Shown: piece by piece, positions 50,296 to 64,000 of the stretch
Position numbering within the stretch: position 1 is the first letter of the stretch
How the letters are laid out: every line of letters begins with the position of its first letter
Source of the DNA: a virus
Length of the DNA: 64,000 nucleotides
Virus record (IMG/VR): IMGVR_UViG_3300045988_160394
Coordinates: 1 to 64,000 of that record
Direction: 5' to 3' (one strand)
The notes under the pieces: generated by a model
Told to the model about the DNA's origin: nothing
Seen by the model: only the letters and a program-made list of their open reading frames with translations
Database searches by the model: none
Made by a program: the position numbers and the translations under genes

Positions 50296-51636
50296 ATGGC
50301 AACTAAATGTATAAAAATAGCTTTTGATTTTGCAAAAGATAATACTATAGATAAAAAAGATTTTTATAAAGAATTAAGAGATATAAATTATAAAACATGG
50401 TTGGCTTGTAATAGAGCTATTACTTACTTTTATACTAACGATATGCAGAATATGGTTCAAAAAGATATTGGTATTCCTAAACAAGATGATAAAGAACTGT
50501 TTGGAAAAAGTTTCGGAGCTTGGGTAGAAAACAGAATGAATGAGTTAATGGAAGGATGTTTATCTACTAATGTAGCTCAAACAAGACAATTTGTTGCTAA
50601 TAGATATGCTCAAGATAAAAAGAATGGGCTATTTAAAGGTCAAGTATCTTTAACTCAATTTAAAAAAGATATACCAATAATAGTTCATAATAAAGCTTAT
50701 AATATTATAGATACTGATAAAGGATTAGGTGTAGAAGTAAGTCTTTTTAATAAAGAAAAACAGAAAGAATTAAACGTTAAAAAGATTAAATTAGTATTTC
50801 CTAAATTAGATGGATCTTCTAAAGCTACGCTAATTAAAATAATGGATAAAACTTATAAACAAGGTTCAATACAAATAACTTATAATGAAAGAAAAAGAAA
50901 ATGGATGATGATTATAAGTTATACTTTTGAAGCTATTAAAGATGAAACATTAAATGAAGATATTACATTAGGAATAGATTTAGGTATAGTTAATGTGGCT
51001 ACTATGTCTTTATATGATTCTAAAAATAATAGTTTTAATAGCATAGCTTGGAAAGAAAGAATTATACCAGGGGATGAGCTTATACATTATAGACAAAAGA
51101 TAGAAGCTAGAAGAAAATCTTTATATATAGCTACTAAATGGTCTAGTGATAATGCTTCAGGCCATGGTTATAAAAGAAAAACAAAGACAGCTAATAAAAT
51201 AAGTGATAAGTATTCAAGATTTAGAGATACTTATAATCATAAGATATCTAGATATATAGTAGATTTAGCTATTAAACATAAAGCTAAGAATATACAAATG
51301 GAAGACTTAAGTGGTTTTTCAGATTATCAATCAGAAAGTTTATTAGCTAACTGGAGTTACTACGATCTTCAACAAAAGATAAAATATAAAGCCGAAGGAA
51401 AAGGTATTAATGTTATATTCATTAATCCACAATATACTTCTAAAAGATGTAGTAAATGTGGTAATATACACGAAGAGAATAGAGATTGTAAAAACAATCA
51501 GGCTAAATTCGAATGTATAGTATGCGGTCATAAAGAGAATGCAGATATAAATGCTAGTAAGAATATAGCTATACCACAAATTGATACTGTAATAAAAGAA
51601 TATATAAAAGATAAAAAAGAGGCTGCTATAAGTTAG
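50296..51636 (+). CDS. cas12f: miniature RNA-guided nuclease, Cas12f-type (TnpB-derived), 446 aa
   Basis: RuvC-I GIDLG (D228, nt 50977-50979), RuvC-II IQMEDL (E336, 51301-51303), zinc ribbon YTSKRCSKCG...CIVCG, RuvC-III NADINASKNIA (D417, 51544-51546). From memory, the C-terminal 220 aa run collinear with Firmicute Cas12f1 proteins (..FRDT.NH..SRYIVD.AIK.....IQMEDL...NW.YYDLQQKI.YKAE..GI.V..I.PQYTS.RCS.CG). Confidence 0.85.
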   Translation: MATKCIKIAFDFAKDNTIDKKDFYKELRDINYKTWLACNRAITYFYTNDMQNMVQKDIGIPKQDDKELFGKSFGAWVENRMNELMEGCLSTNVAQTRQFVANRYAQDKKNGLFKGQVSLTQFKKDIPIIVHNKAYNIIDTDKGLGVEVSLFNKEKQKELNVKKIKLVFPKLDGSSKATLIKIMDKTYKQGSIQITYNERKRKWMMIISYTFEAIKDETLNEDITLGIDLGIVNVATMSLYDSKNNSFNSIAWKERIIPGDELIHYRQKIEARRKSLYIATKWSSDNASGHGYKRKTKTANKISDKYSRFRDTYNHKISRYIVDLAIKHKAKNIQMEDLSGFSDYQSESLLANWSYYDLQQKIKYKAEGKGINVIFINPQYTSKRCSKCGNIHEENRDCKNNQAKFECIVCGHKENADINASKNIAIPQIDTVIKEYIKDKKEAAIS

Positions 51637-51717: not shown

Positions 51718-51856
51718 AAAGGTTGATTTACCAGCCTAAAGATGAGATAGTGATTTCTATTAGAAATAATACTCTCATTAAACGCTCCAACTAGATTGGT
51801 AAAAGGCTAGTGCAAAACAATAATATTATTGGGCGTGTACTAGGATATAGCTTTTG
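51718..51856 (+). ncRNA. tracrRNA/omegaRNA-like structured RNA, copy 1
   Basis: Nested stems TTTACCA(51727-33)/TGGTAAA(51797-803) and ATGAGA(51742-47)/TCTCAT(51773-78); conserved in copy 2 with compensatory changes; ends in CTTTTG. Strand and ends are inferred. Confidence 0.55.
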
Positions 51857-52018
51857 TTAATATTTAATAAAATGATTTAAATATAAGGGTTTAATATTAA
51901 CATAAGATGTATTTAAATTTAAACAATCTATGTGTAGGACAGTTCCTGTACTAAGTTTAATATTAACATAGGATGTATTTAAATGTAGAATCAATATTAG
52001 CATAAGGTATATTTTAAT
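51855..52018 (+). CRISPR. mini CRISPR-like array 1
   Basis: Two 30-nt repeats, GTTTAATATTAACATAAGATGTATTTAAAT (51889-51918) and the same with one mismatch (51955-51984), separated by 36 nt. Degenerate repeat copies flank them at 51855-51882 and 51989-52018. Confidence 0.5.
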
Positions 52019-52081
52019 TTACTCCAAGTAGTTCATTATAAAAGCATATTTAATGACTTTCAATATAATTTATAAAAAGAT

Positions 52082-52246
52082 AAAGGGTGTTTTACCATCC
52101 TAAAAGTGAGAAAGTGATTTTGGAAACGGCTTAAATGATAAGCTTAAAATAAATTTAATACTCTCACTAAACGCTCCAATAAAGTTATTGGTAAAAAGCT
52201 AGTGCAAAATGATTAAATTCAGGCGTGTACTAGAATACATTTTTTA
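52082..52246 (+). ncRNA. tracrRNA/omegaRNA-like structured RNA, copy 2
   Basis: Homologous to copy 1 with a roughly 25-nt larger variable loop; stems TTTACCA(52091-97)/TGGTAAA(52189-95) and AGTGAGA(52105-11)/TCTCACT(52162-68); ends in a small hairpin plus TTTTTATT. Confidence 0.55.
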
Positions 52247-52277
52247 TTAAAGTAAACGGATTGGCTTAAATATACTG

Positions 52278-52338
52278 GTTGAACTTTAACAAGAATTGTA
52301 TTTAAAGATGTGCTCTTTTGGCACTAATGTATTTAAAG
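52278..52338 (+). CRISPR. degenerate CRISPR-like unit 2
   Basis: GTTGAACTTTAACAAGAATTGTATTTAAAG (about 22/30 identity to the array-1 repeat), then 20 nt (ATGTGCTCTTTTGGCACTAA), then an 11-nt repeat 3' fragment TGTATTTAAAG. Confidence 0.35.
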
Positions 52339-57838: not shown

Positions 57839-58420
57839 ATGAATAAATTAAAGTCTTTAGAACAGCAAACTAATAATAGATATTTAAACGTTTATAAAGC
57901 TAAATATGAAAATAAAGAAAAGAAAACTGAATATGAATATTATATAGCTACTAGAAGAAAAAGAGAAGATATGGCTTGTGTAGCTAAAGATAAAAATAAA
58001 ACAGATGCTGTTATGATAGTTCCAACTGATCCAGTTACTGACAACATGTATTTAATAAAACAGTTTAGACCTGCTGTTAATGATTATGTAATAGAATTCC
58101 CTGCTGGTTTAGTTGATCCTGGTGAAACAGAAGAGCAAACAGTAGCGAGAGAATTATATGAAGAAACTGGATTAATAGCTGAAATGATAAACTTAACCGT
58201 ACCTTCATCATATACTTCTGTTGGAATGACAGATGAAAAAGTAGCAGTATATACAGCTATTGTTTCAGGTAAACCTAATACAAATAATCTTATGGATAAT
58301 GAAGACATAGAAATATTAACTATTAAATCTTCTGATTTAAATGATGTTATTAATGGAGTATATGGTGAAGTATCTATAAAGACAAGAATAATATTAACGT
58401 TTTTAAATCTAACATGTTAA
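57839..58420 (+). CDS. Nudix hydrolase, ADP-ribose pyrophosphatase-like
   Basis: Perfect Nudix box GLVDPGETEEQTVARELYEETGL (Gx5Ex7REUxEExGU), preceded by EFPAG as in the NudF/ADPRase subfamily. Confidence 0.75.
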   Translation: MNKLKSLEQQTNNRYLNVYKAKYENKEKKTEYEYYIATRRKREDMACVAKDKNKTDAVMIVPTDPVTDNMYLIKQFRPAVNDYVIEFPAGLVDPGETEEQTVARELYEETGLIAEMINLTVPSSYTSVGMTDEKVAVYTAIVSGKPNTNNLMDNEDIEILTIKSSDLNDVINGVYGEVSIKTRIILTFLNLTC

Positions 58421-58432
58421 GGAGGTTATTAT

Positions 58433-59299
58433 ATGCTATTAAAATGTAATCAACATAGAGATGATTTAGCGAAAAATCTAAAGAGTTATTGTAAAATTGA
58501 TGGCATAAGCATGTTTATTCAAGTAGGAGATAATCCTGCTAGTACCACTTATATTAATCAAAAAAAGAAAGCATGTGATAAAGCAGGAATACAATATGAT
58601 CATGTTGTATTAAATAAAGATATAACAGAAGAACAATTAATAGCTAAAATAAAAGAATATAACGATTGTACAGATGTTATAGGAATAATGGTTCAACTTC
58701 CTTTACCAGTTCATATTAATGAAGAAGCTATTATTAATGCTATCAAACCAGAAAAAGACATAGATGGATTCACTCATGTTAACAAAGGTAAACTAATGGT
58801 TGCAGATGAATCTGTTGTAGTTCCTTGTACTCCATACGGAATTGACGTTTTACTTGATACAATAGGCTTTGGTTATGAAGGAAAAAATGTTGTAGTGGTA
58901 GGTAGAAGTAATATAGTAGGAAAACCTATGACTCAGCTATTAATAAACAGAGGAGCTACTGTTACTTGTTGTAATAGCAAAACTTCTAAAGAAACATTAA
59001 CAAACTTAATATTAAATTCAGATTTATTTATATCTGCTATAGACAAGCCTAACTATTTTGATATACAATATTTTGGAAAGGATAATTTAGCCAAGTTATC
59101 AAATGTAATAGCTATAGATGTAGGAATATTTAGAATAGAAGATAAACTCCATGGGAATATAAACAAGGAATTATATGATTATTTTAAAGCTATTACGCCT
59201 GTTCCAGGTGGAGTAGGACCTATGACTATAGTAGGTGTATTATCTAATATTACAAAATGTGCTTCATTACAAAATAAAATAGAATTTATAGAGAAATAA
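58433..59299 (+). CDS. folD: bifunctional 5,10-methylene-THF dehydrogenase / methenyl-THF cyclohydrolase
   Basis: VGDNPAS..Y...K.KAC...GI, GIMVQLPLP, KDIDGF, PCTP.G, VVVVGRSNIVGKPM, ISA..KP, TPVPGGVGPMT: the full set of FolD motifs. Confidence 0.9.
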   Translation: MLLKCNQHRDDLAKNLKSYCKIDGISMFIQVGDNPASTTYINQKKKACDKAGIQYDHVVLNKDITEEQLIAKIKEYNDCTDVIGIMVQLPLPVHINEEAIINAIKPEKDIDGFTHVNKGKLMVADESVVVPCTPYGIDVLLDTIGFGYEGKNVVVVGRSNIVGKPMTQLLINRGATVTCCNSKTSKETLTNLILNSDLFISAIDKPNYFDIQYFGKDNLAKLSNVIAIDVGIFRIEDKLHGNINKELYDYFKAITPVPGGVGPMTIVGVLSNITKCASLQNKIEFIEK

Positions 59300-59508
59300 T
59301 GATAGACATTATAACTAATACTAGAGAAGCACAGGCTAATTATTTTGCATTATGTTTGTTAATGCCTAAGAAAGAATTTAAAGATGAAATGTATAAAGCT
59401 TTTAATAAAAAAGATTATACTTATGATATGCAATTAGTAGCTAATCATTTTAATGTTCCATTAGAAGCTGCTATTGTACGAGCTAGAGATTTAAGGATTA
59501 TAAAATAG
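59299..59508 (+). CDS. ImmA/IrrE-like C-terminal fragment (no HExxH)
   Basis: EAQANYFALCLLMPKKEF resembles the motif downstream of the ImmA/IrrE metalloprotease active site; only 69 aa and the catalytic motif is absent. Confidence 0.45.
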   Translation: MIDIITNTREAQANYFALCLLMPKKEFKDEMYKAFNKKDYTYDMQLVANHFNVPLEAAIVRARDLRIIK

Positions 59509-59526
59509 GAGGTTGTTTTTAAGACA

Positions 59527-60258
59527 ATGGATAAGTTTCAGATTAAGATATTAAACCCAGAAGAAGTAAAGACATTATTTAAACGTTGAGGGACGTTCGC
59601 ATGTAAATGTTATGACACTCCTGCTAAATATGCAGAAAGAGTTGGTAAATCATGCTTACAATCAGGACACTTTTCAGGATCAAGAAGTATATATATAGAA
59701 ATAGATGTTAGTAATGTACCTAGAGCTCTTGTAGATCAAATAATAAGAAGAGAACAAGGATGCGTTAAAAACGTTGAATCTGGTAGATATGTAGATTTCT
59801 CAGATTTTGATTATTATACTTCACCATTAATAGCTAATGATCCAATAGCTAAAGAGATATATGATGAACACATGAAAGCTACTAGAGAAGTTTATTCTTT
59901 ATTAGTTAAAAGATTAAATGAAAAAGGGATAACTGGTGAAAGAGCCTTTGAAGCAGCTAGAGGAGTTGCTCCTATGAACTATAGAACAGGTATGGTTCTA
60001 GGATTAACATTAGAAGCTTTAATAGGCTTATGTCATGAAAGATTATGTAGTAGAACTCAAGAACATTCTAGACATTTAATCAAGATGATAAGAGATGAGG
60101 TTCTAAAGCTTATACCTGAGTTAGAGCCATATTTAGTAGTGAAATGTGATTATCTACAATGGTGTCCAGAAGGAAGTAAATGTTGTGGTAGAAAACCAAC
60201 TAGAAAAGAATTCTTAGAATTTATTGATTCTAATAAAGTTAAAGGGAGTGTTAAGTAA
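59527..60258 (+). CDS. thyX: flavin-dependent thymidylate synthase ThyX with in-frame TGA (59587-59589)
   Basis: ATG after AGGAGG; the frame is continuous with ORF-track 59872-60258 if TGA is read; ..SGHFSGSRS.., ThyX-motif-like RREQGCVKNVESGRY, ..ARGVAPMNYRT.. helical region. Confidence 0.7.
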
Positions 60259-62888
60259 TGGCAAAGAATATAGTATTTAATTCAGATGCAAGAGAAAAGA
60301 TAAGACAAGGTGTCAATGTATTAGGAGATGCTGTTAGAGCAACTATGGGACCTAAAGGTAGAAATGCTATCTTAGAAAGAACACCTGGTTCTCCATTAAT
60401 AACTAACGATGGAGTTACTATAGCTAAAGAAATAGAATTAATAGACAATATAGAAAATATGGGAGCTCAAATAGTAAAAGAAGCAGCTATTAAGACTAAT
60501 GATGAGGCAGGAGATGGGCCACAACCTTTATATTCTAAAATATTAACACCTAATGGTTGGACTACTATGGGTGAAATAAAAAAAGGTGATGTTATATGTG
60601 GTACAAATAATACTCATCAAACAGTATTAGAAGTTTATCCTAAAGGGAAAAAAGAATTGGTTATAATTACATTCTCTAATGGCAAACAAGTTCATTGCTG
60701 TCAAGATCATTTATGGACTATAAATACAAGCTATGGAAAAAGAAAAACCATGACAACAAGAGAAATGATAAACAAAGGCGTATACAAACTTAATAGCCAA
60801 GGTGATAAAAGATATAATTTCTATACACCTTCTAACACAGTAGAGTTTCAAGAAAAAGAATTACCGATACATCCATACCTTTTAGGTGCTCTATTAGGAG
60901 ATGGCTCATTAACTGGGACAGGGAATATAGAATTAAGCTTAGGATATAATAAAGAGCACATAATAGAAAAAATATATCCGATATTACCTGACAATATACA
61001 AATATCAATACAGGATTGTTTAGACAAGAATTGTTATAGAGTCAAATTTTCAAAAATAGATAAAACTAATCCTATTTCTATGGAAAGTTTACTTAATGAA
61101 TTAAATCTATTAGGAACTAATAGTAAAAATAAATTTATACCTGAAATTTATTTATATAATTCAGTTGAAAATAGAACACAATTGTTAAATGGTTTAATAG
61201 ATACAGATGGATATAACAATAATAGAGGATTGTTTGAATTTTCTACTGTTAGCGATAAACTTAATGAATCCTTCACAGAATTAGTTAATAGCTTAGGAAT
61301 TCAAACATCATATACTTTACACAAAAGAGATAATGACTTATTATCTTATTCTTTCAATCCTATTCATAGACATACTCAATTAAAAGGTTATAAATATGGA
61401 ATAAAAATAGTAGATATTGAAGTTGTTAATAAACTAGAAGAAATGAAATGTATAAAAGTATCAAATCAAGATAATTTATATATAACAGATGGATATATAG
61501 TAACACACAACACTACTACAGCTACAGTTTTAGCACAAGCAATCATAAATGAAGGTTATAATGCTCTTTCTACAACTGAAGATGTTTCAGAAGAAGAAAA
61601 GAATCAATCTATATACAAAGGTGCCAATCCTGTTTTATTAAAGAAAGGTATAGAAATAGCTACTAAAATAGCAATAGATGAATTAAAAGCTATAGCTAAG
61701 CCTATAGAAACAGATGAAGAAATAAAACAAATAGCAACTATATCTTCTGCTAGTGATGATATAGGAGAATTAATATCTCAAGCTATTAAAAGAGTAGGTA
61801 AAGACGGTATAATTACTACTACTGAATCACATACTATAGAAACTACTTTAGAAGTTAAAGAAGGTTTTGAATTTGACAGAGGTTTTTATTCACCTTACTT
61901 TGCTGATGATCAAGAAAAAATAGAATCTGTTTTTTATAATCCATTAATACTTGTAAGTGATCAAAAGATGAGAACTCAACAAGAAATAGTACCTTTATTA
62001 GAACAAGTGTTAAAAGTTCAAAGACCTATAGTGTTTATAGTTGATGAAATAGAACAAATCGTATTCTCTTCTTTATTAAGAAATAAAATGAATGGGAATA
62101 TGGATGTAGCAGTAATAAAAGCACCTGGATTTGGGGCAAAAAGAAAAGAGCTATTACAAGATATAGCTATTTTAACAGGAGCAACTTTTATATCTGAAGA
62201 ATACGCTTTAACTATGTCAGAAGCTAGAATAAACTTATTAGGTTCATGCGAGTCTATAAAGATAACTAAAAATAATACTATTATATTTAATGGTTCTGGA
62301 GATAAAGAAGAAATAAATAAAAGAGCAGAACACATTAAGAATAGTATTAATGCTGATAATATATCAGAATACGATAAAGAAAAACTAGAAGAAAGATTAG
62401 CTAAAATAACAGGTGGTATAGCTACTATAAAAATAGGAGCTGCTACAGAGCCTGAATTAAAAGAGAAAAAGTTAAGAATAGAAGATGCTATTAATGCCAC
62501 TAAAGCAGCTATAGAAGAAGGAATAGTTGCAGGTGGTGGAACAGCTTTATTTAATCTTTCACCAGTAATATTAGAAAAGACTAAAAACTTAGTAGGAGAT
62601 GTATATCAAGGAGCATTATGTGTAGCATTAGCTGTTAATTCTCCAATAATACAAATAGCTATGAATGCAGGTGTAAATGCTACTAAGGTTATGGAAAATG
62701 TTTTAAAGACAGCTAAAGAAAAAAGCAATCCTAATATAGGATATGATGCTTATAATGATGCTTATGTTGATATGTTAGAAGTAGGAATAATAGATCCTGT
62801 AAAAGTTACTAGAAATGCATTACAAAATGCAGCTTCAGTAGCTGCTATACTGTTAACAACAGATGTAACTATAAGCAACTTTCAATAA
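60258..62888 (+). CDS. groEL: chaperonin GroEL (Cpn60) precursor interrupted by an intein
   Basis: Exteins (87 + 458 aa) carry GroEL signatures: AR....GV..L.DAV..T.GPKGRN, ITNDGVTIAKEIEL, AGDG|TTTATVLA, GGG.ALF, IIDP.KVTR.ALQNAASVA. TAATG overlap with thyX. Confidence 0.95.
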   Translation: MAKNIVFNSDAREKIRQGVNVLGDAVRATMGPKGRNAILERTPGSPLITNDGVTIAKEIELIDNIENMGAQIVKEAAIKTNDEAGDGPQPLYSKILTPNGWTTMGEIKKGDVICGTNNTHQTVLEVYPKGKKELVIITFSNGKQVHCCQDHLWTINTSYGKRKTMTTREMINKGVYKLNSQGDKRYNFYTPSNTVEFQEKELPIHPYLLGALLGDGSLTGTGNIELSLGYNKEHIIEKIYPILPDNIQISIQDCLDKNCYRVKFSKIDKTNPISMESLLNELNLLGTNSKNKFIPEIYLYNSVENRTQLLNGLIDTDGYNNNRGLFEFSTVSDKLNESFTELVNSLGIQTSYTLHKRDNDLLSYSFNPIHRHTQLKGYKYGIKIVDIEVVNKLEEMKCIKVSNQDNLYITDGYIVTHNTTTATVLAQAIINEGYNALSTTEDVSEEEKNQSIYKGANPVLLKKGIEIATKIAIDELKAIAKPIETDEEIKQIATISSASDDIGELISQAIKRVGKDGIITTTESHTIETTLEVKEGFEFDRGFYSPYFADDQEKIESVFYNPLILVSDQKMRTQQEIVPLLEQVLKVQRPIVFIVDEIEQIVFSSLLRNKMNGNMDVAVIKAPGFGAKRKELLQDIAILTGATFISEEYALTMSEARINLLGSCESIKITKNNTIIFNGSGDKEEINKRAEHIKNSINADNISEYDKEKLEERLAKITGGIATIKIGAATEPELKEKKLRIEDAINATKAAIEEGIVAGGGTALFNLSPVILEKTKNLVGDVYQGALCVALAVNSPIIQIAMNAGVNATKVMENVLKTAKEKSNPNIGYDAYNDAYVDMLEVGIIDPVKVTRNALQNAASVAAILLTTDVTISNFQ
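60519..61511 (+). mobile_element. intein (331 aa) with LAGLIDADG homing-endonuclease domain; class-3-like W/C/T signature
   Basis: Inserted between G87 and T of the DG|TTT loop. Block A-like PQPLYSKILTPNGW; block B ..QDHLW (W, nt 60714-60716); LAGLIDADG motifs LLGALLGDGSL and LNGLIDTDGY; block F MKCIKV (C, nt 61449-61451); block G GYIVTHN followed by +1 Thr. Confidence 0.85.
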
Positions 62889-62892
62889 ATAA

Positions 62893-62957
62893 AATATTAA
62901 GTGGGCAACTAGTTAAGGGGGCCCACTTTTTTTGTGCTTCGCACTTATTTAAGGAGG
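62893..62957 (+). promoter_or_regulatory. conserved intergenic cassette, copy B
   Basis: AATATTAAG, terminator hairpin, T-run, GTGC-TTC-GCAC (62934-62944), TTATTTAAGGAGG; same order as the copy at 47405-47457. Confidence 0.4.
62900..62933 (+). terminator. Rho-independent terminator
   Basis: AGTGGGC / GCCCACT stem, 14-nt loop, TTTTTTT tail. Confidence 0.7.
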
Positions 62958-62965
62958 TGAATTGT

Positions 62966-63859
62966 ATGTGAGAAAGAAAGCTAACGAATAAACAGAAGAA
63001 AAAAGAAAAACAATTGAAGAAACAAAAAGAAAAAGCTGAAAGAGAACAATTTATTAATAGCTGTATGAAAGAGATTAATGATGAATTAGACAGAAGTTAT
63101 ATTGTAATTGACGATATGCTAGAAAAAATAAGTAAAGATTTTGTTGATTCTGCTATTAAAATAGAAGAATATAAACAGTCACTAATTCATATTGCATACA
63201 GAGATGATTTGGATAAAGAAAGTTATTCAGATTATAAAGAAGTTAAAGATATTATTACTAATATAGAAGAGATTAGAAAAAATATGAATTCTAAATATAT
63301 AGATATGTTTTCTGATAGTACAGAGAATTCTATACTCCAATTAGCAGAAGAATCTATAAATAAAATTGCTGATATTATTAAAAGCATTCAAGCAGATATA
63401 AAAGGCCAAAAGAATGACTTTTTAATACTTTCTATATTATTGGATAGGTCTAAGAGAATATTAGAAGAATATAACACATACATAGTAGAATCTGTCTTAG
63501 AATCTAATCCTTATATTGATGCGTATATAGAAACAGAAGAATCTTATTATAATTTCTTATTAGAAATAGTAGGAGATAAAGAAGATAATCCTGAAGATAT
63601 TACACAAGAAGAAATAAGAAAATACAATGATAGATTAAGAGTAGAATATTCTGATTTATCAAGATTTCTTACTTTAAAGGGATATGTATGCGTTAGACAA
63701 AATAGTACGACTCATGCAATATGGAGAAACGAAGAATTAGGAATATCTGTTCCATTACCTAATAAATCTGGTACAGTTCCACAAGGAACAGTTTCTAAGC
63801 TATTAAGAATAATAAATAGTAATAGATATGAATTAGCAGAATTTATAATGGAGGAATAG
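62966..63859 (+). CDS. coiled-coil protein with C-terminal HicA-like domain; TGA as second codon if the start is 62966
   Basis: ATG 62966 is 6 nt after AAGGAGGTG and in frame with ORF-track TTG 63014 through TGA 62969-62971. C-terminal FLTLKGYVCVRQNSTTHAIWRNEELGISVPLPNKSGTVPQGTVSKLLRII fits the HicA/YcfA pattern. Confidence 0.5.
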
Positions 63860-63861
63860 TT

Positions 63862-64000
63862 ATGGTTGTATTTGTTATAATAGAAGAAACATTGTTTGAA
63901 AATGAAAATCCATTAAATGAAATTGTATATATAACTTCAAGTAAAGAAGATTGTTTAAGTACTCTTAATAGACAATATCGTTTAGCAATAGCTGATATGT
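63862..64000 (+). CDS. hypothetical protein, 5' partial at window end
   Basis: ATG after GGAGGAA; the ORF runs off the window. Confidence 0.4.
   Translation, partial: MVVFVIIEETLFENENPLNEIVYITSSKEDCLSTLNRQYRLAIADM

What the first reader, a model, noticed from the sequence alone, without database searches (positions are those of the whole stretch)
60519..61511. Class-3-type intein with LAGLIDADG endonuclease splitting the ATP-binding DGTTT loop of a phage GroEL
The GroEL reading frame is interrupted exactly between G87 and the first Thr of the universally conserved AGDG-TTTATVLA nucleotide-binding motif by 331 aa that end in ..GYIVTHN, followed by Thr(+1). The insert has two LAGLIDADG motifs (LLGALLGDGSL, LNGLIDTDGY). 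Aligning the ILT of PQPLYSKILTPNGW with block A of canonical inteins puts a Pro, not Cys or Ser, at intein position 1. The three hallmark residues of class-3 inteins are all present. These are Trp two residues after the block-B His (QDHLW), Cys at block F position 4 (MKCIKV, where standard inteins have Asp) and Thr before the terminal His-Asn (VTHN). Class-3 inteins splice through a branched thioester on the block-F Cys. Insertion in the most conserved catalytic loop is typical of intein homing sites. No groES is adjacent; the upstream neighbour is thyX.
Basis: partly seen in the sequence, partly recalled or inferred. Interest (0 to 1): 0.75.

Follow-up and report, generated by a model that had tools for sequence, protein, structure and literature searches.

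The report
Class-3 intein inside a phage GroEL
A jumbo-phage chaperonin (GroEL) gene is interrupted in its ATP-binding loop by a mobile, self-splicing protein insert of the known "class 3" type. It is an ordinary kind of element sitting in a host protein where I found no earlier report of one.

Summary
ORF 60258-62888 encodes an 876-aa GroEL. Its AGDG|TTTATVLA nucleotide-binding motif is split by a 331-aa insert (60519-61511) that starts with Pro and ends in THN, followed by Thr+1.

Near-identical phage contigs carry the uninterrupted gene. One is 98.5% identical in nucleotides and has an exact 993-bp empty site, so the junctions are fixed without relying on motif alignment.

The insert is a HINT splicing domain with a nested LAGLIDADG endonuclease (AF2 pLDDT 93; Foldseek top hits are TliVMA and PI-SceI). 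It meets every sequence criterion of class 3 inteins:
- no N-terminal nucleophile;
- His B:10 and Trp B:12;
- Cys F:4;
- Thr G:5;
- His-Asn at the C-terminus;
- Thr at +1.

Across 104 inteins at this GroEL site, these residues are invariant or nearly so. Inteins are more alike than their exteins, their distribution is patchy, and dN/dS is 0.1-0.2. All of this fits an active homing element.

Pro1 is not unusual, because the class-3 prototype (MP-Be DnaB) also starts with Pro. What is new is the host. I found no chaperonin intein in the literature library, in 50,697 GenBank phage records or in the top BFVD hits, yet about 100 metagenomic 50%-identity clusters carry it.

Verdict: a new member of a known kind. 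The splicing chemistry is inferred, not shown.

The parts
60258..62888 (+). GroEL precursor gene (876 codons plus stop) made of N-extein, intein and C-extein
   Evidence: Single ORF. Pfam Cpn60_TCP1 7.9e-57. The identical protein occurs on 7 metagenomic contigs of 0.2-1 Mb, for example ENA ERZ1756024 NODE_19, 263,172 bp.
60258..60518 (+). N-extein, 87 aa, ending ...EAGDG (Gly at -1)
   Evidence: Collinear with the intein-free alleles P0084, P0085 and P0368. N-extein dN/dS against L004 is 0.10.
60519..61511 (+). Intein, 331 aa (993 nt), Pro1 ... Thr329-His330-Asn331
   Evidence: Exactly absent from L003, L002 and L008. PDB phmmer and profile hits to gp41-1, MchDnaB1 and MsmDnaB1 inteins. AF2 pLDDT 93.3; Foldseek hits TliVMA and PI-SceI at 1e-15 to 1e-14.
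60519..60833 (+). N-terminal half of the HINT splicing domain (about aa 1-105), with block A (PQPLYSKILTPNGW) and block B (CCQDHLW)
   Evidence: Aligns to gp41-1 residues 4-91 and MchDnaB1 residues 4-77. The domain limit is approximate, taken from the mini-intein P0059 and the AF2 secondary structure.
60708..60716 (+). Block B His64 (B:10), Leu65 and Trp66 (B:12, the W of WCT)
   Evidence: His is 104/104 and Trp 102/104 in GroEL-site inteins. Both are invariant in the cross-host alignment A1. They align to the block-B H-x-W motif of MchDnaB1, which is H65/W67 in the paper's numbering (PMC7664689).
60834..61388 (+). Nested LAGLIDADG homing-endonuclease domain (about aa 106-290). Motif 1 LLGALLGDGSL is at 60879-60911 and motif 2 LNGLIDTDGY at 61185-61214.
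   Evidence: Pfam Hom_end 1.9e-7 (31.6 bits, cut-off 21.1). LAGLIDADG_3 scores 22.3 bits, just under its 22.5 cut-off. The motif Asp residues are kept in 97 and 98 of 104 homologs. dN/dS is 0.09-0.18. The domain is absent from the mini-intein allele P0059.
61389..61511 (+). C-terminal part of the HINT domain, with block F (EEMKCIKVSNQDNLY) and block G (GYIVTHN)
   Evidence: Aligns to the C-terminal blocks of 6riz, 6rix and 6bs8.
61449..61451 (+). Cys311 = block F position 4, the predicted initiating nucleophile
   Evidence: 104/104 in GroEL-site inteins and invariant in A1. Aligns to Cys124 of MchDnaB1 and Cys118 of MsmDnaB1 (PMC7664689, PMC6195587).
61503..61511 (+). Thr329 (G:5), His330 (G:6) and Asn331 (G:7, the cyclising Asn)
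   Evidence: Thr 103/104, His 104/104, Asn 104/104.
61512..61514 (+). Thr+1, the first C-extein residue and the first Thr of the GroEL GDG-TTT phosphate loop
   Evidence: Thr 104/104.
61512..62888 (+). C-extein, 458 aa plus stop
   Evidence: Pfam Cpn60_TCP1 stretch 449-873. With the N-extein it is 99.4% identical (3 aa differences) to the intein-free P0368.

Best explanation
This is a mobile class-3 intein carrying a LAGLIDADG homing endonuclease. It is inserted in the phosphate-binding GDG|TTT loop of the GroEL gene of an uncultivated, roughly 263-kb, low-GC jumbo phage.

What is shown:
- The 993-bp element is a precise, in-frame insertion relative to near-isogenic intein-free alleles.
- It has the HINT plus LAGLIDADG architecture.
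- It carries all class-3 signature residues.
- It is under purifying selection.
- It is distributed patchily among related phages, and the inteins are more similar to each other than their host genes are.

What is inferred from the published class-3 mechanism (Tori 2010, Tori & Perler 2016, Beyer 2020):
1. After translation, Cys311 (F:4), activated by His64 (B:10) and positioned with Trp66 (B:12) and Thr329 (G:5), attacks the Gly87-Pro88 peptide bond. The N-extein is moved onto a branched thioester at Cys311.
2. Thr+1 takes the N-extein over as an ester (the block-G branched intermediate).
3. Asn331 cyclises and releases the intein.
4. An O-to-N shift restores the GDG-TTT peptide bond. The product is a 545-aa functional GroEL and a free 331-aa endonuclease.
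5. The endonuclease cuts intein-free GroEL alleles at the GGAGATGGG|ACTACTACAGC site during co-infection, and the intein is copied in by repair.

Until splicing occurs, the chaperonin's ATP site is disrupted.
For: Junctions and insertion:
- Intein-free alleles P0084, P0085 and P0368.
- DNA alignment shows an exact 993-nt presence/absence, with 98.47% identical exteins in L008.
- Synteny NUDIX-FolD-ThyX-GroEL-HicA-like...ClpP is shared by intein-plus and intein-minus contigs.

Intein identity:
- Pfam Hom_end, LAGLIDADG_3 and Intein_splicing.
- phmmer against PDB: gp41-1 4.8e-10, MsmDnaB1 3.4e-6.
- Profile against PDB: gp41-1_WCT 1e-17, gp41-1 3e-14, MchDnaB1 8e-11, MsmDnaB1 1e-9, full length with position 1 on position 1.
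- AF2 pLDDT 93.3, pTM 0.90.
- Foldseek hits endonuclease-bearing inteins at E 1e-15 to 1e-11 and class-3 mini-inteins. BFVD hits inteins in viral ATPases with TM about 0.83.

Class-3 signature:
- The invariant columns in a 36-sequence cross-host alignment are H64, W66, C311, I312, T329, H330 and N331.
- In 104 GroEL-site inteins: position 1 is P 100 / C 4; H 104; W 102; C 104; T 103; H 104; N 104; T+1 104.
- The class definition and the Pro1 prototype are in PMC2807308. The mechanism is in PMC5222942 and PMC7664689.

Mobility and function:
- Intein versus extein identity is 93.4 vs 83.2% and 80.1 vs 62.9%.
- Only 3 of about 22 closest GroEL clusters carry it.
- dN/dS is 0.09-0.2 in both the HINT and endonuclease parts.
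- The LAGLIDADG Asp residues are conserved.
Against: - No experiment exists. Splicing, the Cys311 thioester and endonuclease cleavage are all inferred.
- Grafting WCT onto gp41-1 did not by itself give class-3 splicing (PMC7664689), so signature residues are necessary but not proven sufficient.
- The closest solved relative by sequence is a class-1 intein (gp41-1 wild type, 3e-14), not a class-3 one.
- Pfam Intein_splicing is below its gathering cut-off (19.5 vs 35.8 bits), and LAGLIDADG_3 is marginally below its own.
- I could not read the AF2 coordinates, so the distance from Cys311 to the scissile bond was not measured.
- Four GroEL-site relatives have Cys at position 1, so a class-1-like route is conceivable in part of the family, though not in this Pro1 copy.
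Confidence: 0.85

Rival explanations
1. It is a real intein but splices by another route. One option is class-2-like direct attack of Thr+1 on the N-terminal junction. The other is a class-1-like route using some other upstream nucleophile. In both cases Cys311 would be only structural.
For: - The closest solved homolog by sequence is the class-1 gp41-1 intein.
- Four of 104 relatives at this site have Cys1.
- WCT grafting alone was not sufficient for class-3 splicing (PMC7664689).
Against: - Position 1 is Pro, which cannot form the linear (thio)ester.
- Class 2 is defined by the absence of WCT, and known examples use Cys+1 (PMC2807308). Here WCT is complete and +1 is Thr.
- Cys F:4 is 104/104 invariant, whereas standard inteins have Asp there.
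- The empty-site alleles leave no room for a shifted junction that starts with Cys or Ser.
Confidence: 0.07
2. It is a decayed or splicing-dead intein remnant, or a domesticated insertion. The interrupted GroEL would then be non-functional or function with the insert in place.
For: - No experimental evidence of splicing.
- Some public 'inteins' have turned out to be pseudogenes (for example Arsp-FB24, PMC3196547, listed).
- The neighbouring thyX carries an in-frame TGA, so some gene decay in this region is conceivable.
Against: - The 876-codon frame is intact and the identical protein occurs on 7 large contigs.
- All catalytic residues are invariant across 104 diverged copies.
- dN/dS is 0.1-0.2 for intein and extein.
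- The insert splits the GDG-TTT phosphate loop that every other GroEL homolog retrieved here keeps uninterrupted, so an unspliced product is unlikely to be selected.
Confidence: 0.05
3. It is an assembly chimera or an intron-like nucleic-acid element rather than a protein-level insert.
For: Metagenomic origin. Several long 'GroELs' in the homolog list are assembly duplications (P0093, P0105, P0114).
Against: - The same 876-aa protein is found independently in ENA, Logan and JGI assemblies.
- Homologous inserts at the same codon occur in about 100 distinct 50%-identity clusters.
- The insert is in frame, has intein blocks and gives no Rfam intron hit in the window.
Confidence: 0.01

Closest known systems
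Mycobacteriophage Bethlehem DnaB intein (MP-Be DnaB), the class-3 prototype (Tori et al. 2010, PMC2807308)
   Same: Phage-encoded. Begins with Pro1. WCT triplet (Trp B:12, Cys F:4, Thr G:5), His B:10, His-Asn terminus and Thr+1. About 340 aa, with a nested LAGLIDADG endonuclease domain according to Kelley 2016 figure S3 for Bethlehem. Inserted in a nucleotide-binding loop.
   Different: The host is a P-loop helicase (insertion in the Walker A region), not a chaperonin. The sequence relationship is distant: the best GenBank phage hits to this intein reach only 36.6% identity.
MchDnaB1 and MsmDnaB1 class-3 mini-inteins (PDB 6rix, 6riy, 6bs8)
   Same: Full-length profile alignment at 8e-11 and 1e-9 with the same register. 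The H/W/C/T residues align to H65/W67/C124/T143. The catalytic Cys-His-Thr triad is described in PMC7664689.
   Different: They are bacterial mini-inteins without an endonuclease, they start with Ala, they sit in DnaB, and MchDnaB1 has Ser at +1 (PMC7664689).
gp41-1 split intein (PDB 6qaz; engineered gp41-1_WCT, 6riz)
   Same: Closest solved sequence relative (3e-14; 1e-17 for the WCT-grafted variant). It shares Thr G:5 (LTHN) and the block-B Cys (C-S-E-E-H-L).
   Different: It is class 1 (Cys1, Phe B:12, Asp F:4), naturally split, lacks an endonuclease and sits in a gp41 helicase. The top rank of 6riz is inflated by the grafted W and C.
P-loop-inserted relatives in metagenomic phage PhoH-like, AAA, RecA, DnaB, SNF2 and terminase proteins (P0012-P0075)
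   Same: The same intein family at 28-41% identity, with WCT invariant. They are inserted as GxGK|A/E-Q-P-L ... THN|T, again directly before the Thr of a phosphate-binding loop.
   Different: The host fold is a P-loop NTPase, and position 1 is mostly Ala instead of Pro.
Phage-encoded GroEL-like chaperonins (for example Bacillus phage AR9 and Staphylococcus jumbo phages)
   Same: A jumbo-phage GroEL without an adjacent co-chaperonin. The AR9 protein is reported to work without one (bioRxiv 10.1101/2020.12.14.422802).
   Different: None of the 275 GenBank phage records with a GroEL homolog pairs it at one place with an intein related to this one. Identity to them is at most 49%.

Membership tests
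Intein (HINT splicing domain) | In-frame insertion within a conserved host protein, absent from orthologous alleles | tested here: met
   Exact 993-nt presence/absence against L003, L002 and L008. The exteins rejoin to a 545-aa GroEL that is 99.4% identical to P0368.
Intein (HINT splicing domain) | HINT fold with blocks A, B, F and G | tested here: met
   PDB profile hits to intein structures at 1e-17 to 1e-9 over the full length. AF2 pLDDT 93 with Foldseek hits to inteins. Pfam Intein_splicing gives only 19.5 bits, below its 35.8 cut-off.
Intein (HINT splicing domain) | C-terminal His-Asn followed by a Cys, Ser or Thr at +1 | tested here: met
   H330-N331|T+1, each 104/104 in site homologs.
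Class 3 intein (Tori et al. 2010) | No Cys, Ser or Thr at intein position 1 | tested here: met
   Pro88 of the precursor is intein position 1. The junction is fixed by the empty-site alleles and by the register to 6rix and 6bs8. P is 100/104 at this site.
Class 3 intein (Tori et al. 2010) | Trp at block B position 12 (two residues after His B:10) | tested here: met
   H64-L65-W66. W is 102/104 and invariant in A1.
Class 3 intein (Tori et al. 2010) | Cys at block F position 4 | tested here: met
   C311 in EEMKCIKV. It is 104/104 and aligns to Cys124 of MchDnaB1.
Class 3 intein (Tori et al. 2010) | Thr at block G position 5 | tested here: met
   T329 in VTHN, 103/104.
Class 3 intein (Tori et al. 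2010) | Thr or Ser at +1 (one known exception has Cys) | tested here: met
   Thr, 104/104.
Class 3 intein (Tori et al. 2010) | Splicing absolutely requires Cys F:4 and passes through a block-F branched thioester intermediate | not testable with these tools
   This needs expression, C311A/S and N331A mutants, and a test of thiol lability of the intermediate.
Class 1 (standard) intein | Cys or Ser (or Thr) nucleophile at position 1, usually with Asp at F:4 | tested here: not met
   Pro at position 1 and Cys at F:4.
Class 2 (KlbA-type) intein | No N-terminal nucleophile and no WCT triplet | tested here: not met
   The WCT triplet is complete. Definition from PMC2807308.
LAGLIDADG (DOD) homing endonuclease | Two LAGLIDADG motifs, each with the conserved acidic residue, in a pseudo-dimeric alpha-beta domain | tested here: met
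   LLGALLGDGSL and LNGLIDTDGY. Asp is kept in 97 and 98 of 104. Pfam Hom_end 31.6 bits against a 21.1 cut-off. Foldseek hits PI-SceI, PI-PfuI and I-Tsp061I.
LAGLIDADG (DOD) homing endonuclease | Site-specific cleavage of the intein-free allele | not testable with these tools
   Indirect support only: patchy distribution, intein identity higher than extein identity, and dN/dS 0.09-0.18 in the endonuclease part.
GroEL / Cpn60 chaperonin (host protein) | Cpn60_TCP1 domain with the GDGTTT nucleotide-binding loop | tested here: met
   Pfam 7.9e-57. The loop is restored only after removal of aa 88-418. The protein is 50-52% identical to Clostridia GroELs.

The most novel reading that the evidence does not exclude
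The GroEL-site inteins are a large, undescribed class-3 intein lineage (about 100 or more clusters at 50% identity) that crossed from Walker-A P-loops into the structurally unrelated phosphate loop of a chaperonin.

In jumbo phages the intein would then act as more than a parasite. Because the initiating nucleophile is an internal Cys, next to an invariant Cys at B:6 and a frequent Cys at B:7, splicing could be redox- or metal-gated, as in MsmDnaB1. That would time activation of the phage chaperonin during infection.

The family contains both Pro1 and Cys1 forms with a full WCT triplet, and its closest solved relative is the class-1 gp41-1 intein. [quoted passage not shown] That would bear on the published argument that class 3 arose independently.
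Probability: 0.12. Interest if true: 0.7.

Novelty: new member of a known kind. Interest (0 to 1): 0.4.

Why it matters
- **Wider host range for class 3.** The 2010 class-defining paper listed its non-KlbA inteins that lack an N-terminal nucleophile only in helicase-like proteins, mostly at P-loops. A chaperonin host shows the element can colonise a different ATPase fold, provided there is a Gly-rich loop followed by Thr.
- **A ready-made experimental system.** Near-isogenic intein-plus and intein-minus phage alleles (98.5% nt identity) define the exact homing site and the exact spliced product.
- **Raw material for engineering.** More than 100 diverged natural sequences with Pro1 (and a few with Cys1) and an invariant Cys-His-Thr/Trp set could guide work on class-3 inteins. 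These are of interest because they need no N-terminal Cys.
- **Annotation.** These 850-930-aa 'GroEL' proteins in metagenomes should be read as precursors of about 545-aa chaperonins.

None of this changes the understanding of how inteins work.

Tried and rejected
- Megablast of 58000-64000 against GenBank phages found no match.
- The IMG/VR pattern scan with the precursor gave no confirmed relative.
- tblastn of the whole precursor against 50,697 phage records found no record covering 80% or more at one place, so no deposited phage has GroEL joined to a related intein.
- Literature searches for class 3 intein + GroEL, intein + chaperonin, and phrases such as 'GroEL intein' found nothing relevant. 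In the two Staphylococcus jumbo-phage papers I opened, which mention both words, the intein is in gyrA. The other hits, including the phage CBB paper, were judged from titles and abstracts only and not opened.
- Tori & Perler 2011 (J Bacteriol) is not held, so its list of class-3 hosts could not be checked.
- The long 'GroELs' P0093, P0105 and P0114 are assembly duplications, not inteins.
- A shifted N-junction starting with Cys or Ser is excluded by the empty-site alleles.
- A second intein of this family in the window: none.
- AF2 coordinates are not exposed to scripts, so active-site distances could not be measured.
- Reading the whole window with TGA as a sense codon gave no general gain in ORF continuity apart from thyX.
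Full report
**1. The observation**

The + strand carries one uninterrupted ORF, 60258..62888 (876 aa). Pfam places Cpn60_TCP1 (7.9e-57) on both sides of a central segment that instead matches Hom_end, LAGLIDADG_3 and, weakly, Intein_splicing.

The sequence reads ...KTNDEAGDG | PQPLYSKILTPNGW ... NLYITDGYIVTHN | TTTATVLAQAII.... The insert is aa 88-418, nt 60519-61511, 331 aa. These are exactly the coordinates given.

**2. The junctions are fixed by natural empty-site alleles**

A search with the conceptually spliced 545-aa GroEL returned three kinds of close relative:
- the same 876-aa protein;
- 545-aa proteins that read AGDGTTTATVLA without interruption (P0084 92%, P0085 90%);
- intein-containing alleles on more distant exteins (P0086, P0098).

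The 90% cluster of the window protein itself contains P0368. This is a 545-aa allele that differs from the predicted spliced product at only 3 residues.

Its DNA (L008) is 98.47% identical to the window's exteins (25 of 1638 nt). The only indel in the gene is the 993-bp intein...GGAGATGGG|[CCACAACCT...ACACACAAC]|ACTACTACAGC... against ...GGAGACGGA|ACTACTACAGC... (also L003 and L002).

No alternative register gives GDGTTT, so a shifted junction beginning with Cys or Ser is excluded. Four of the 25 differences lie within 24 nt of the junction. That is suggestive of a co-conversion tract or of target-site drift, but it is not significant on its own.

All these contigs share the order NUDIX-FolD-ThyX-GroEL-HicA-like ... 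ClpP-ClpX-like.

**3. What the insert is**

- *Sequence against solved structures.* The closest chains are inteins only: gp41-1 (4.8e-10 for the engineered WCT variant 6riz, 1.5e-8 for the wild type), MsmDnaB1 6bs8 (3.4e-6) and MchDnaB1 6rix/6riy.
- *Profile of the splicing domain.* A profile built from 20 GroEL-site inteins with the endonuclease removed improves these to 1e-17, 3e-14, 8e-11 and 1e-9. The alignments are full length and profile position 4 falls on chain position 4, so Pro1 corresponds to residue 1 of the class-3 structures. His64, Trp66, Cys311 and Thr329-His-Asn align to H65, W67, C124 and T143-H-N of MchDnaB1 (residue roles from PMC7664689).
- *Structure prediction.* An AlphaFold2 model of the intein with 8 flanking residues on each side is confident (pLDDT 93.3, pTM 0.90). 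Foldseek against the PDB ranks endonuclease-bearing inteins first (TliVMA 1e-15, PI-SceI 1e-14, PI-PfuI 3e-9). The mini-inteins follow, including the class-3 ones.
- *Viral structures.* In BFVD the best matches (TM about 0.8) are intein-containing viral SMC, AAA, RecA, terminase and DnaB proteins.

So this is a bipartite intein: a HINT domain (about aa 1-105 and 291-331) with a nested LAGLIDADG domain (about aa 106-290).

**4. Class assignment**

Tori et al. (PMC2807308) define class 3 by three features:
- absence of an N-terminal Cys, Ser or Thr;
- the co-varying triplet Trp B:12, Cys F:4, Thr G:5;
- Thr or Ser at +1.

Their prototype, the MP-Be DnaB intein, itself begins with Pro1. The window intein meets every sequence criterion.

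The conservation pattern is more telling than the single sequence.
- In a MAFFT alignment of the query with 35 homologs from GroEL, PhoH-like, AAA, RecA, terminase-like and other hosts (28-54% identity), the only invariant columns are His64, Trp66, Cys311, Ile312, Thr329, His330 and Asn331.
- Across 104 inteins at the GroEL site, position 1 is Pro in 100 and Cys in 4. His B:10 is 104/104, Trp B:12 102/104, Cys F:4 104/104, Thr G:5 103/104, His-Asn 104/104 and Thr+1 104/104.

Class 1 (nucleophile at position 1) and class 2 (no WCT) are therefore both excluded on tested features.

The mechanistic criterion is obligate use of Cys F:4 through a block-F branched thioester. It cannot be tested here. 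The failure of WCT grafting to convert gp41-1 (PMC7664689) is a reminder that the signature is necessary rather than sufficient.

**5. Is it alive and mobile?**

- The intein is more conserved than its host gene. Window against P0086: intein 93.4%, extein 83.2%. Window against P0098: intein 80.1%, extein 62.9%. The closest exteins (92.5% and 99.4%) lack it.
- Only 3 of the roughly 22 nearest GroEL clusters carry it.
- Nei-Gojobori dN/dS between the three intein-plus alleles is 0.12-0.20 overall and 0.09-0.18 in the endonuclease part. This is similar to the N-extein.
- The acidic residues of both LAGLIDADG motifs are kept in 97 and 98 of 104 copies.
- A mini-intein allele at the same site also exists (P0059).

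This is the classic picture of a homing element cycling through gain and loss. Endonuclease activity is inferred, not shown.

**6. How it most likely works**

Shown: the anatomy, the junctions, the conservation and the polymorphism.

Inferred from the published class-3 pathway (PMC2807308, PMC5222942, PMC7664689):
1. Cys311 attacks the Gly87-Pro88 bond, giving a branched thioester.
2. Thr+1 takes over the N-extein as an ester.
3. Asn331 cyclises.
4. An O-to-N shift restores GDG-TTT.

The loop that is split is the conserved GDGTTT motif, which every other GroEL homolog retrieved here keeps intact. From general knowledge of GroEL it contacts the nucleotide phosphates. The precursor should therefore be inactive as an ATPase until it is spliced.

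**7. Context**

- The identical protein lies on seven 0.2-1 Mb metagenomic contigs (for example 263,172 bp).
- The window is 25-33% GC and all long ORFs are on one strand. It encodes a CCA-adding enzyme, an NAD-dependent ligase, RlaP, NadR-like, NUDIX, FolD, ThyX and PcfJ-like proteins. This fits a jumbo phage.
- The nearest cellular GroELs are from Clostridia at 50-52%.
- No Cpn10 lies within 10 kb, although another phage with a GroEL-site intein does have Cpn10 directly upstream (L010).

**8. Comparison with what is known, and novelty**

The architecture, signature, Pro1 start and phage setting match the class-3 prototype. The difference is the host.

[quoted passage not shown] The mycobacteriophage survey lists terminases, DnaB, RecB and others, but no chaperonin (PMC5050341).

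I found no chaperonin or GroEL intein in any of these places:
- the 8-million-paper library;
- 50,697 GenBank phage records, where 275 have a GroEL homolog and none has it joined at one place to an intein related to this one;
- the top 50 BFVD hits.

All GroEL-intein clusters I looked up are metagenome-only. Their only label is 'chaperonin GroEL'.

The family is nevertheless large. About 100 of the best 150 representatives at 50% clustering are 800-930-aa GroELs with the insert at this codon, and they sit in diverse phage-like contexts.

The nearest non-GroEL relatives sit at GxGK|...|T in Walker-A loops. The lineage therefore appears to have moved between two unrelated folds that both offer a Gly-rich phosphate loop followed by Thr.

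I class it as a new member (a new insertion-site allele and host) of a known kind. Caveat: Tori & Perler 2011 and InBase could not be consulted.

**9. Verdict**

- Confidence that this is an intein at exactly these coordinates: about 0.98.
- Confidence that it belongs to class 3 by signature: about 0.9.
- Confidence that it splices through Cys311: about 0.8 (inferred).

Interest is moderate (0.4). It is a clean, well-supported example with a new host protein and useful natural controls, but it involves no new mechanism.

Noticed in passing
window 59527-60258 (+); in-frame TGA at 59587-59589: The thyX gene directly upstream of GroEL is a full-length frame of about 243 codons with a single in-frame TGA (..LFKR*GTFACKCY..). 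The homolog in L006 has Trp/TGG at that position (LFERWGRFSCKCY; 74% identity). Related contigs L003 and L002 carry the same TGA, and L004 has an in-frame stop at the same position (codon not printed); their thyX differ elsewhere. It is therefore not a sequencing error and not obviously a decaying pseudogene. TGA ends only 6 of 88 long ORFs in the window, and there is no tRNA in the window. Possible explanations are TGA-to-Trp recoding, readthrough, a suppressor tRNA elsewhere in the genome, or translation restart.
   Followed up: partly
window 51767-52306 (repeats), next to ORF 50296-51636: Rfam CRISPR-DR3 just reaches its gathering score at 51889-51918, 51955-51984 and 52278-52307 (- strand). 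There are 29-nt direct repeats spaced 66 nt apart and a duplicated block of about 95 nt (51767-51860 and 52156-52250). All of this lies immediately downstream of a TnpB/Cas12f-like ORF (Cas12f1-like_TNB 1e-21). It could be a mini CRISPR array or repeats associated with the TnpB element in a phage genome.
   Followed up: partly
window 59299-59508 (+): This 69-aa ORF matches only the C-terminal end of IrrE/Peptidase_M78 (profile positions 73-122). The segment of about 210 bp (59286-59496) is missing from the otherwise 88-98% identical contig L008, so it is an indel polymorphism between FolD and ThyX.
   Followed up: partly
homologs P0273, P0281, P0299 (GroEL-site inteins): Four of 104 inteins at the same GroEL site begin with Cys instead of Pro (GDG|CQPL..., GDG|CQDL...); across all 104, Cys F:4, His-Asn and Thr+1 are invariant. 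They may be natural Cys1-plus-WCT forms relevant to how class 1 and class 3 relate.
   Followed up: partly
window 60696-60701 (Cys60-Cys61 of the intein): Block B carries a Cys-Cys pair just before His64 (HCCQDHLW). Cys60 (B:6) is invariant in the 20-sequence profile. Cys61 (B:7, usually Thr in standard inteins) is Cys in 80 and Ser in 22 of 104. gp41-1 also has the B:6 Cys. Together with the catalytic Cys311, this could give a disulfide or metal switch like the one described for MsmDnaB1 (PMC6195587). This is speculation and was not tested.
   Followed up: no
P0059 (568 aa) and other short alleles: Mini-intein versions without the LAGLIDADG domain occupy the same GroEL site; P0059 is one. Among the 104 full copies aligned, intein lengths run from 241 to 417 aa. 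This points to endonuclease loss within the lineage.
   Followed up: partly
L009 6857-9637 and 10001-12631: In another phage-like contig, a 926-aa SNF2-family helicase with its own Hom_end_hint/LAGLIDADG intein lies two genes upstream of a GroEL that carries the GroEL-site intein. That makes two intein-bearing genes within 6 kb.
   Followed up: no
window 61560-61610 (C-extein aa about 12-40): Shortly after the splice site, this GroEL and its phage relatives have an acidic insertion of about 8-15 aa (NALSTTEDVSEEEKNQSIYKG) compared with bacterial GroELs (..EGLKNLAAGANP..). It is variable between alleles. This was seen by eye in the sequences and was not analysed.
   Followed up: no
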